Assembly: GCA_030141605.1 (NCBI GenBank)
Contig: JAQGDQ010000141.1
Span: 434,001 to 498,000 of the forward strand
DNA: 64,000 bases
Direction: 5' to 3'
DNA from: Tubiluchus corallicola
Lineage: Eukaryota; Animalia; Priapulida
The notes below the pieces were generated by a model. The model ran no database searches. It saw only the letters and a list, made by a program, of their open reading frames with translations, and was not told the origin of the DNA. Both the position numbers and the translations under genes were made by a program. Shown piece by piece: positions 10,501-13,500 of the stretch (position 1 is the stretch's first letter; each line of letters starts with the position of its first letter).

Positions 10501-13500
10501 TTACCATGTAATTGCCGATTCCAATACGACACGGTTTAGTTTGTAATTTGCACGTAGATTCTCGCTCTATCATTTCTCTTTTTTTAAAAAACTGTCTAGC
10601 TTGCCGTATGTTTTTTAGAAAGGAAAATACGTTTAATAGAATGCGGGTATAATTATCTCATATTCAGATTAAGAGTTATTTTATCTTCTGTAATTATAAA
10701 TATCATTTATAATTTACTTACTTATAATTAATCATTTATAATTATATTTATAAATATAAATACGCAATAAATATCAAGCACGTGTACAAAAAAAGAGTAT
10801 AGAGAAAAGGTGAGAAAAGAAACCACATAGCAAAGCAGCCAATTTTGTAGTTAAAGTAACTCATAGTTAAGAACTTCTTGGGACAAATTAAGCTGAGGAC
10901 AAGCATACAAATAAATAATTGTCGAACAGAAAAGGTATATAGCTAAAATCTTAACAAGCAGACAAACGAAATTGCAGTTTTAATTAACTTACTATAGTAA
11001 CTTATAAAATGATCATAAAATAATCCACAATCGGCAAGATCAGACATCGAGGTCAGGTGGACAACAGTAACGAGGATCGCATCAGGATTTTTCTATGATC
11101 GGACATCACTGGTTGCTACTTGATTTCCTTTCAAACAGTGTCCTGTCGCAATGGGTATTTTAATTTCTAATTTTTTGTCGTCTTAAATTTTTAATTTCTG
11201 CCCACTTGAAATTCTTAATAGTTTGTGCATACAGTGGCATAAAAACCACGTTCTATTCATTGCTGTTCTATTGACTTTGCCTAGATGACAACTTTTTCCG
11301 TTGAAAGGCCTACAGACTCCCAACCAACATTAGTCATTCTGAAGTACATTTGCCGTCGAAAGCCAGGAGAGTGCATACAGTTCTTCAACATATTGCTAAA
11401 AAAGTAAGTGTTGCATTCTGTGCTGTATTGAGCATATCTTTTGCGGTCATTTTTTCCACCTTAATAAAGACAGTTGAGGAAAATTTTTGCTCCATTCATG
11501 TTCACTCATTATACTTAACTATTGAGAAATCTATAATGTTACTTTTAGGGTGATGAGAGCTCTGAAAATGGTAGAGGTAGGTCGACAACATTATGACCCG
11601 AGTAACCATGTGGAACTGCAACAACATCGCCTGGACATATGGCCAGGATATGTAACTTCTATCCAGGAATTCGAGGGCGGACTCATGTTGCAATTAGATG
11701 TATCACATCGCGTATTACGCACACAGACTGTATTAGAATTGATGTAAGTACCAAGTTGACAGACTGTATTAGAATTGACGTAAGTGCCAAGTTGACAGAC
11801 TGTATTAGAAATGACGTAAGCACCACGTTGACAGACTTTATTAGAATTGATGTAAGTACCAAGTTGACAGGCTGTATTAGAATTAACGTAAGCACCAAGT
11901 TCACAGACTGTATTAGAATTGACGTAAGCACCAAGTTGACAGACTATATTAGAATTGACGTAAGCACCAAGTTGACAGACTGTATTAGAATTGATGTAAG
12001 TACCAAGTTGACAGACTGTATTAGAATTGATGTCAAGTACCAAGTTGACAAGACTGTATTAGAATTGATGTAAGTACCAAGTTGACAGACTGTATTAGAA
12101 TTAACGTAAGCACCAAGTTGACAGACTGACTGTATTAGAATTGACGTAAGCACCAAGTTGACAGACTGACTGTATTAGAATTGACGTAAGCACCAAGTTG
12201 ACAGACTGTATTAGAATTGATGTAAGTACCAAGTTCACAGACTGTATTAGAATTGATGTAAGTACCAAGTTGACTGACTGTATTAGAATTGACGTAAGCA
12301 CCAAGTTGACAGACTGTATTAGAATTGATGTAAGTACCAAGTTGACAGACTGTATTAGAATTGATGTAAGTACCAAGTTCACAGACTGTATTAGAATTGA
12401 TGTAAGTACCAAGTTCACAGACTGTATTAGAATTGATGTAAGTACCAAGTTCACAGACTGTATTAGAATTGACGTAGGTACCAAGTTGACTGACTGTATT
12501 AGAATTGACATAAGCACCAAGTTGACAGACTGTATTAGAATTGATGTAAGTACCAAGTTGACAGACTGTATTAGAATTGACGTAAGCACCAAGTTGACAG
12601 ACTGTATTAGAATTGACGTAAGTACCAAGTTGACAGACTGTATTAGAATTTATGTAAGTACCAAGTTGACAGACTGTATTAGAATTGATGTAAGTACCAA
12701 GTTGACAGACTGTATTAGAATTGATGTAAGTACCAAGTTCACAGACTGTATTAGAATTGATGTAAGTACCAAGTTGACTGACTGTATTAGAATTGACGTA
12801 AGCACCAAGTTGACAGACTGACTGTATTAGAATTGACGTAAGCACCAAGTTGACAGACTGTATTAGAATTGGTGTAAGCACCAAGTTGACAGACTGTATT
12901 AGAATTGATGTCAAGCACCAAGTTGACAGACTGTATTAGAATTGGTGTAAGCACCAAGTTGACAGACTGTATTAGAATTGATGTAAGTACCAAGTTGACA
13001 GACTGTATTAGAATTGATGTCAAGTACCAAGTTGACAGACTGTATTAGAATTGATGTAAGTACCAAGTTCACAGACTGTATTAGAATTGATGTAAGTACC
13101 AAGCTGTCAGACTGTATTAGAATTGATGTCAAGTACCAAGTTGACAGACTGTATTAGAATTGATGTAAGCACCAAGTTGACAGACTGTATTAGAATTGAT
13201 GTAAGCACCAAGTTGACAGACTACTGTTAACCGTAAAAATGCCACAGTTACAGTTATGCCCGCAATGTCTGTAAATTTTGCAAGAAAGGATTCCAGCCAA
13301 CATGAATATGAATATAACGCAACCACCCAAGAACCGTGTTTTTATTAAATGAATGACCACCGTTTAAGGATAAGTAAACATCTTCCAGGTAATGACTTTA
13401 TCGTTCGTGTAATTTATGCAGCAGCAAACTATTGCATCAGGTCTTCCTGAAATATTCGCAAACATTTCCAACAGGCTTTATTGATGCTTTACAGTATTTA

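What the first reader, a model, noticed from the sequence alone, without database searches (positions are those of the whole stretch)
11723..13222. 41-copy tandem array of the piwi gene's own exon 7 splice donor; every copy after the first lies behind a stop codon
Seen: the 36-bp unit is the last 21 nt of coding exon 7 (ACAGACTGTATTAGAATTGAT) plus the first 15 nt of intron 7 (GTAAGTACCAAGTTG). There are 41 units filling about two thirds of the 2244-nt intron. 36 units keep GTAAG or GTAGG, 4 read GTCAAG and 1 reads ATAAG. In the exon frame the first junction reads AT|G TAA (11745-11747), so splicing at any downstream donor retains a stop and gives a 340-aa product lacking PAZ, MID and PIWI. Established: duplicated 5' splice sites compete for U1 snRNP, and premature stops upstream of later junctions trigger NMD. 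Inference: the array could act as a copy-number-tunable splice-decoy or poison rheostat on the dose of a germline transposon-silencing slicer, or it may be a tolerated neutral expansion. I do not know of a described case of this size in a piwi gene.
Basis: partly seen in the sequence, partly recalled or inferred. Interest (0 to 1): 0.85.

Follow-up and report, generated by a model that had tools for sequence, protein, structure and literature searches.

The report
Splice-donor minisatellite in a piwi intron
A 36-base stretch covering the end of one exon of an invertebrate piwi gene and its splice signal is repeated 41 times into the next intron; this is a known kind of repeat, and the cell likely uses the first, ancestral signal, so it is probably a tolerated by-product rather than a gene-dose switch.

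Summary
Read-derived contigs match the array's make-up, so it is no assembly artefact. The stop is automatic: a phase-2 GTAAG/GTGAG donor reads xxG-TAA/TGA, as at introns 6 and 8 here and at the same intron in 8 loci from other animals that have no repeat. The array ends in a 7-bp direct repeat, as slippage would leave. Such junction-spanning minisatellites are published (human F7, CBS, 6-16, LMNB2, PDGF; lancelet 'mirages'; chicken 'exon stuttering'); where tested, the first donor, or it plus the next two, is used. This scan already holds 49 findings under the same words in at least 23 genomes. No RNA covered this gene, so donor use here is inferred. In passing: the exon 17 donor is duplicated once too, and two runs hold a 297-bp tandem loop across intron 6 that would make a stop-bearing hybrid exon. 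Verdict: new member of a known kind, low interest.

The parts
4490..31843 (+). piwi gene (Ago3/PIWIL2 type), 18 coding exons, 917 aa, D-E-D-H motif residues present
   Evidence: gene model; Pfam Piwi_N, ArgoL1, PAZ, Piwi; best PDB matches sponge Piwi and PIWIL2 ahead of PIWIL1/Siwi/fly Piwi; motifs located
11549..11743 (+). exon 7 (195 nt, ArgoL1 linker), ends in phase 2 at the authentic donor GAT|GTAAGTAC
   Evidence: same intron position and phase in 8 loci of other animals
11723..13222 (+). minisatellite, 41 units of 36-40 bp; unit = last 21 nt of exon 7 + first 15 nt of intron 7
   Evidence: read-derived contigs
11745..11747 (+). TAA in the exon frame, retained if any later donor is used
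11723..11729 (+). left copy of the 7-bp direct repeat ACAGACT that opens the array
13216..13222 (+). right copy of ACAGACT that closes the array; likely the slippage seed
11744..13987 (+). intron 7, 2244 nt, of which 765 nt are unique sequence after the array
13988..14176 (+). exon 8 (start of PAZ)
26247..26316 (+). single decayed copy (87%) of the exon 17 end plus its donor (source 25991-26060), 256 bp downstream
11331..11627 (+). single-copy in the window, but a 297-bp head-to-tail loop in contigs of runs X2 and X3 (exon 6 end, intron 6, exon 7 start)

Best explanation
The array is a minisatellite that likely grew by replication slippage from a 7-bp direct repeat flanking the exon 7 splice donor, and the spliceosome likely uses the first, ancestral donor, so that full-length PIWI is made and the 40 later donors are mostly silent passengers. 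Shown: the anatomy, the terminal direct repeat, the intact reading frame through donor 1, the conserved intron position, and the array's presence in reads. Inferred: (1) a 36-bp duplication between the two ACAGACT copies, then growth and homogenisation by slippage or unequal exchange; (2) choice of the most upstream donor, as shown for F7 IVS7, helped by exon size (donor 1 gives 195 nt; only donors 2 and 3, 231 and 267 nt, stay inside this gene's 64-280 nt range); (3) any small leak to donors 2-3 keeps the TAA ten introns before the end and would be cleared by nonsense-mediated decay, which makes the array cheap to carry rather than useful.
For: Array opens and closes with ACAGACT, 36 bp apart in the presumed ancestor. 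Donor 1 gives the homolog-length segment, 41 aa as in 96 of 111 proteins, and sits at an intron position shared with 8 of the 17 split loci I inspected (5 distinct junction sequences), none with a second donor copy in the 172-2437 bases held downstream. The stop follows from phase 2 plus GTRAG. In a U1-duplex estimate 19 of 40 later donors equal donor 1, 20 are weaker and 1 is 0.3 kcal/mol stronger: no sign of tuned decoys. The same gene has a second junction duplication (exon 17) and a purely intronic 147-bp one, the only two local duplications outside the array that a self-BLAST of the window found. Precedent: F7, LMNB2 and PDGF use only the first donor; CBS and 6-16 use it plus two proximal sites (PMC1557585); lancelet mirages do not disturb splicing (PMC3087553, PMC3902484); 236 chicken introns show exon stuttering (PMC12954441).
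Against: No RNA evidence for this gene, so first-donor use is borrowed from mammals and lancelets. Donor 2 is predicted as strong as donor 1 and the array RNA is less folded than all 200 shuffles (z +3.55), so nothing in sequence or structure hides it. In CBS and 6-16 proximal pseudo-sites are used, and a paper title links the CBS repeat to lower enzyme activity (Lievers 2001, title only). The two commonest unit variants (-1 T>C in 15 units, +6 T>C in 17) both fall in the donor, which could mean selection against copies; the test on distinct variants was not significant (8 of 20 in 9 of 36 positions, p 0.10). The read depths suggest that both chromosomes of sample S1 carry a similar array, i.e. 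it may be stable rather than a fleeting allele.
Confidence: 0.8

Rival explanations
1. Leaky burden: the nearest copies (donors 2-4) take a measurable share of splicing, so the allele lowers piwi mRNA through decay. The effect is real but accidental, and selection slowly weakens the copies.
For: Donor 2 equals donor 1 in the U1 estimate and gives a 231-nt exon; proximal pseudo-sites are used in CBS and 6-16; 20 of 40 copies are weaker than donor 1, through two common variants.
Against: No significant excess of donor mutations (p 0.10) or of weak sites among the first six copies (4 of 6, p 0.33); F7 showed no leak in 50 clones per experiment.
Confidence: 0.11
2. Selected rheostat: unit number sets how much transcript is diverted to stop-bearing, decay-bound forms and so tunes the dose of a transposon-silencing slicer.
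For: All 40 later donors do give a 340-aa product without PAZ, MID and PIWI; 36 of 41 units keep a GTAAG/GTAGG word; the CBS repeat is reported, by title, to go with lower activity.
Against: The stop is automatic and older than the array. Upstream-first choice makes units beyond the third largely irrelevant, so unit number is a poor dial. No array at this intron in 8 loci of distant animals. Depth per copy fits a similar array on both chromosomes of S1, giving no sign of wide length variation. The same arrangement occurs in many unrelated genes.
Confidence: 0.06
3. Assembly artefact: the array is absent or much shorter in real DNA.
For: No single contig spans the array, and the exact unit number was not read from long reads.
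Against: 22 unit variants in the window; six variant-bearing contigs in run X1 have 162-207 depth per predicted copy, like the unique flank (188); unit-to-unit joints are seen in X1, X2 and X3.
Confidence: 0.03

Closest known systems
Human F7 intron 7 37-bp VNTR (Borensztajn et al. 2006, PMC1557585; seen: abstract, introduction, first results sections = parts 1-2 of 6, discussion passages)
   Same: Unit of nearly the same size whose first copy spans an exon-intron donor, leaving identical pseudo-donors in the intron; most lie behind a stop.
   Different: F7 has 5-9 units with 4 exon bases each; here 41 units with 21 exon bases, in an invertebrate piwi gene. F7 donor choice was tested; here it was not.
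Human CBS intron 13 31-bp VNTR, 6-16 (25 pseudo-sites), LMNB2 (100 bp x 10-15), PDGF intron 4 (81 bp x 16-18) (as summarised in PMC1557585; CBS unit and allele sizes from passages of PMC2630376; Lievers 2001 title only)
   Same: CBS unit is 24 exon + 7 intron bases with 16-21 copies, the closest in make-up; it is also the precedent for leak to nearby copies and for a link between copy number and activity.
   Different: Fewer copies; polymorphism is documented there and untested here.
Lancelet 'mirage' minisatellites (Adh3, troponin C, globins BflGb6/BflGb9, PGBD5; passages of PMC3087553 and PMC3902484)
   Same: Tandem copies of an exon-intron boundary in an invertebrate, 10-160 bp units, several per genome, without reported harm to splicing.
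   Different: Different animal and gene; 41 copies is more than the 3-6 given for BflGb6.
Chicken 'exon stuttering' (Hron et al. 2026, PMC12954441; passages)
   Same: Lateral part of an exon with its donor or acceptor copied through the adjacent intron; 236 introns in 115 genes.
   Different: Concentrated on GC-rich dot chromosomes with repeat-filled introns; this window is 35% GC with one large array.

Membership tests
Junction-spanning minisatellite (F7 IVS7 type / mirage / exon stuttering) | First unit spans a real exon-intron boundary | tested here: met
   Unit 1 = 21 exon + 15 intron bases at a donor conserved in other animals
Junction-spanning minisatellite (F7 IVS7 type / mirage / exon stuttering) | Head-to-tail copies of a 10-160 bp unit run into the adjacent intron | tested here: met
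   41 units, period 36, 93% matches
Junction-spanning minisatellite (F7 IVS7 type / mirage / exon stuttering) | Copies keep donor-like pseudo-sites | tested here: met
   36 of 41 GTAAG/GTAGG; 19 of 40 later sites equal donor 1 in U1-duplex energy; 7 later units identical to unit 1
Junction-spanning minisatellite (F7 IVS7 type / mirage / exon stuttering) | mRNA uses the first donor, at most with the next one or two | not testable with these tools
   No RNA run found holds the exons
Junction-spanning minisatellite (F7 IVS7 type / mirage / exon stuttering) | Length polymorphism (VNTR) | tested here: inconclusive
   One sample only; depth per copy fits similar arrays on both chromosomes
Regulated unproductive splicing (poison cassette, splicing coupled to decay; features recalled) | Alternative event puts a stop well upstream of later junctions | tested here: met
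   In silico: stop at codon 341 with ten further introns
Regulated unproductive splicing (poison cassette, splicing coupled to decay; features recalled) | The stop-bearing form is made and its share is regulated | not testable with these tools
   No RNA cover
Regulated unproductive splicing (poison cassette, splicing coupled to decay; features recalled) | The element is conserved across species | tested here: inconclusive
   Absent in 8 of 8 distant loci with the same intron; no close relative was available
PIWI clade, Ago3/PIWIL2 branch | N, L1, PAZ, MID, PIWI order with catalytic D-E-D-H; nearer PIWIL2/Ago3 than PIWIL1/Siwi/Piwi | tested here: met
   (exon 14: 123-131 bits to sponge Piwi and PIWIL2; 95, 77 and 57 bits to PIWIL1, Siwi and fly Piwi); no tree was built

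The most novel reading that the evidence does not exclude
This piwi gene is a hot spot for self-poisoning junction duplications (36 bp x 41 at intron 7, a decayed copy at intron 17, a 297-bp loop across intron 6 in another haplotype), and the leak through them into stop-bearing, decay-bound transcripts sets the dose of a germline transposon slicer, a repeat-length dial on the genome's own defence against repeats.
Probability: 0.06. Interest if true: 0.65.

Novelty: new member of a known kind. Interest (0 to 1): 0.13.

Why it matters
As it most likely stands it is one more case showing that animals tolerate long rows of look-alike splice donors, here in a germline defence gene. It could serve as a natural test of upstream-first donor choice in an invertebrate: 19 equal-strength rivals, all marked by the same stop, so blocking decay would reveal any leak. 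If unit number did tune piwi dose it would link repeat growth to transposon control, but nothing found here points that way.

Tried and rejected
No whole genome is held for this window, so I could not count such arrays genome-wide or look for piwi paralogs. Run search: no RNA holder listed; the one RNA-guessed run (X5) and the second sample (X4) lay only on interspersed repeats of 4400-11758 and on no exon: no evidence either way on expression or splicing. No read set was laid across the array itself, so no exon 7-8 joint or unit count was read directly. Hairpin masking of the copies: rejected, the first 300 nt fold worse than 200 of 200 shuffles, and donor accessibility shows no pattern. Purging of donor signals from copies: not significant (p 0.10; p 0.33). 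Coding use of the array: an alternative frame ([12 protein letters not shown] repeats) is open for up to 219 codons but is broken by 8 off-size units and is not the exon frame; rejected. Dispersed element: the unit occurs nowhere else in the window. Close relatives: none; best protein identities by score are 44-49% and the 56 metagenome loci are distant; of these 32 run through the junction without a break, 22 are split or partial and 2 gave no hit; I inspected 17 of the 22 and 8 have the intron at the same place. Paper searches; the piwi-specific one (piwi, minisatellite, intron, splice donor, tandem repeat) returned 3 reviews, seen as listings only, none on such a case. No supplements were read.

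Full report
Observation. Tandem Repeats Finder reports one large array in the 64-kb window, 11723-13222, period 36, 41.2 copies, 93% matches. Parsing gives 41 units (33 of 36 bp, 5 of 37, 3 of 40; 22 distinct sequences) and a closing 7-bp ACAGACT. The unit pattern matches 41 times, only in the array, and never in 100 shuffles.

The gene. Exons were placed with tblastn of homologs and GT-AG boundaries: 18 coding exons, 4490-31843, 917 aa without a stop. Pfam finds Piwi_N, ArgoL1 (exon 7), PAZ (exon 8) and Piwi; the D-E-D-H motif residues are present (motif recalled). Exon 14 scores 123-131 bits against sponge Piwi and PIWIL2 structures and 95, 77 and 57 against PIWIL1, Siwi and fly Piwi, and many named hits are Ago3 or PIWIL2, so this is likely the Ago3/PIWIL2 branch; no tree was built. 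No close relative was found (44-49% identity among the best scores). Earlier notes on this genome guess a priapulid; I did not test that. Exon 7 is 11549-11743 and intron 7 is 2244 nt. Donor 1 gives a 41-aa segment across the junction, as in 96 of 111 full-length homologs. Each of the 40 later donors keeps TAA 11745-11747 and gives 340 aa.

Is the array real? Contigs of runs X1-X3 (one sample) show unit-to-unit joints as loose ends before 11723. Taking the contig letters from their places, mismatch counts and loose ends, six array contigs of X1 have depths of 162-207 per copy of their 31-mers in the window, and the contig over the last unit and unique 3' flank has 188. Two allele contigs at 5064-5288 sum to 186, so about 186 is the two-chromosome depth, and the simplest reading is a similar array on both chromosomes. 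The tool warns that depth is no copy number, and one of nine X1 contigs was not shown. I cannot tell whether this sample is the one assembled: both contigs at 5064-5288 differ from the window (5 changes; 14 changes and 2 gaps).

Is the stop special? No. A phase-2 intron that starts GTAAG reads xxG-TAA. All three such donors of this gene (introns 6, 7, 8) stop at once. Among 56 distant loci from metagenome contigs, 32 run through the junction, 22 are split or partial and 2 gave no hit; of the 17 split loci I inspected, 8 (5 distinct junction sequences) have the intron at exactly this place and phase, as AT|GTGAG or CT|GTGAG, which reads into TGA, and each has one copy of its junction 20-mer in the DNA held. 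So donor 1 is the ancestral site, and the stop is older than the array.

Origin. The array opens with ACAGACT in exon 7 and closes with ACAGACT before unique intron. Removing 40 units leaves two copies of that 7-mer 36 bp apart around the donor, the short direct repeat from which slippage starts a minisatellite (mechanism recalled; inference). Shared variants scattered along the array (-1 T>C in 15 units, +6 T>C in 17, a 4-bp insertion in 3) fit turnover by slippage or unequal exchange. A self-BLAST of the window finds two other local duplications: an intronic 147-bp one and a decayed 70-bp copy of the exon 17 end with its donor. Local duplication is thus not rare in this gene.

Which donor is used? 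Not shown: no RNA run held the exons. In a U1-duplex estimate (U1 end recalled) 19 later donors equal donor 1, 20 are weaker, 1 is 0.3 kcal/mol stronger. The array RNA folds worse than all 200 shuffles, so the copies are not hidden by structure. Exon size argues for the first few: this gene's first 17 coding exons are 64-280 nt, donors 1-3 give 195, 231 and 267 nt, donor 41 would give 1652 nt. Distinct mutations are not significantly concentrated in the donor (8 of 20 in a quarter of the unit, p 0.10) and weak sites are not concentrated at the front (4 of 6, p 0.33), although the two commonest variants are both in the donor.

What is known. The human F7 intron 7 holds a 37-bp repeat whose first unit spans the exon 7 donor; 50 constructs showed that the identical downstream sites work if the first is destroyed but do not compete with it, and that the most upstream site is chosen even against stronger ones (PMC1557585; abstract, introduction, first results sections, discussion passages). 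Its introduction lists 6-16 (25 pseudo-sites; two proximal ones also used), CBS (15-20 units; two also used), LMNB2 and PDGF (first only). The CBS unit is 24 exon + 7 intron bases, 16-21 copies (PMC2630376 passages); a title links it to lower activity (Lievers 2001, title only), the best precedent for a dose effect. Lancelet 'mirages' are the invertebrate version and are reported not to disturb splicing (PMC3087553, PMC3902484 passages). Chicken 'exon stuttering' covers 236 introns in 115 genes (PMC12954441 passages). I found F7 by my own search; the lancelet and chicken papers came as leads from earlier scan notes and were then read. The scan index holds 49 findings with the same words in at least 23 genomes, some with hundreds of units (unreviewed notes); none holds 'piwi' as well, and a paper search for a piwi case gave 3 unrelated reviews.

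A side finding. Contigs of X2 (327 bp) and X3 (325 bp) run from 11627 back to 11331 at a 6-bp shared CAACAT: a 297-bp head-to-tail loop of exon 6 end, intron 6 and exon 7 start that the window lacks. The loop shares the non-window letter at 11558 with the X1 contig that runs on into unit 1, and in X2 it carries two further changes at 11379-11380 that turn a Gln codon into Pro. If it lies in this gene on another chromosome, it creates a 152-nt hybrid exon with a stop at the joint (301 aa). X1 showed no loop, so a library artefact or a separate gene fragment is not excluded.

Verdict. A real, correctly described junction-spanning minisatellite, a new member of a known kind. Most likely (0.8) a slippage-born passenger with donor 1 used and any leak removed by decay; an accidental burden 0.11, a selected rheostat 0.06, an artefact 0.03. 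Interest 0.13.

Noticed in passing
window 11331-11627 (runs X2, X3): 297-bp head-to-tail loop over exon 6 end, intron 6 and exon 7 start, joined at CAACAT, absent from the window and not seen in X1. If allelic it makes a 152-nt hybrid exon with an immediate stop (301 aa), a possible null or leaky piwi allele.
   Followed up: partly
window 25991-26060 and 26247-26316: The exon 17 end and its donor are duplicated once, 256 bp downstream (87% identical, donor TTG|GTATGTAC intact): a second, decayed junction copy in the same gene.
   Followed up: partly
window 14279-14376 and 14426-14523: Intronic tandem duplication in intron 8, offset 147 bp, 96% identical.
   Followed up: no
window 6440-7070, 16655-17145, 24121-24490, 9200-9280: Copies of high-copy interspersed repeats in piwi introns 2, 10, 15 and 4; the intron 2 and intron 10 copies are inverted to each other, 240 nt at 82%; very high contig depth.
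   Followed up: no
window 5064-5288 and elsewhere in 4400-11758: High polymorphism: the two allele contigs of X1 differ from the window by 5 and by 14 letters plus 2 gaps in 225 bp.
   Followed up: no
window about 52900-63650 (+): A gene with at least four CUB exons and a Sushi exon, running off the window.
   Followed up: partly
window 54977-55063: Degenerate (CCCTAA)14 telomere-like repeat inside an intron of the CUB gene.
   Followed up: no
window 964-2900: Decayed LINE-like endonuclease/reverse transcriptase remnant about 1.6 kb upstream of the piwi start (weak Exo_endo_phos_2 hit; reading frames).
   Followed up: partly
L014 1500-2327, L016 1516-2371, L012 3199-3537: Distant piwi relatives carry their own 28-bp x 12-30 minisatellite one intron further on; in L014 it starts about 270 bp inside the intron and does not include the donor.
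   Followed up: partly
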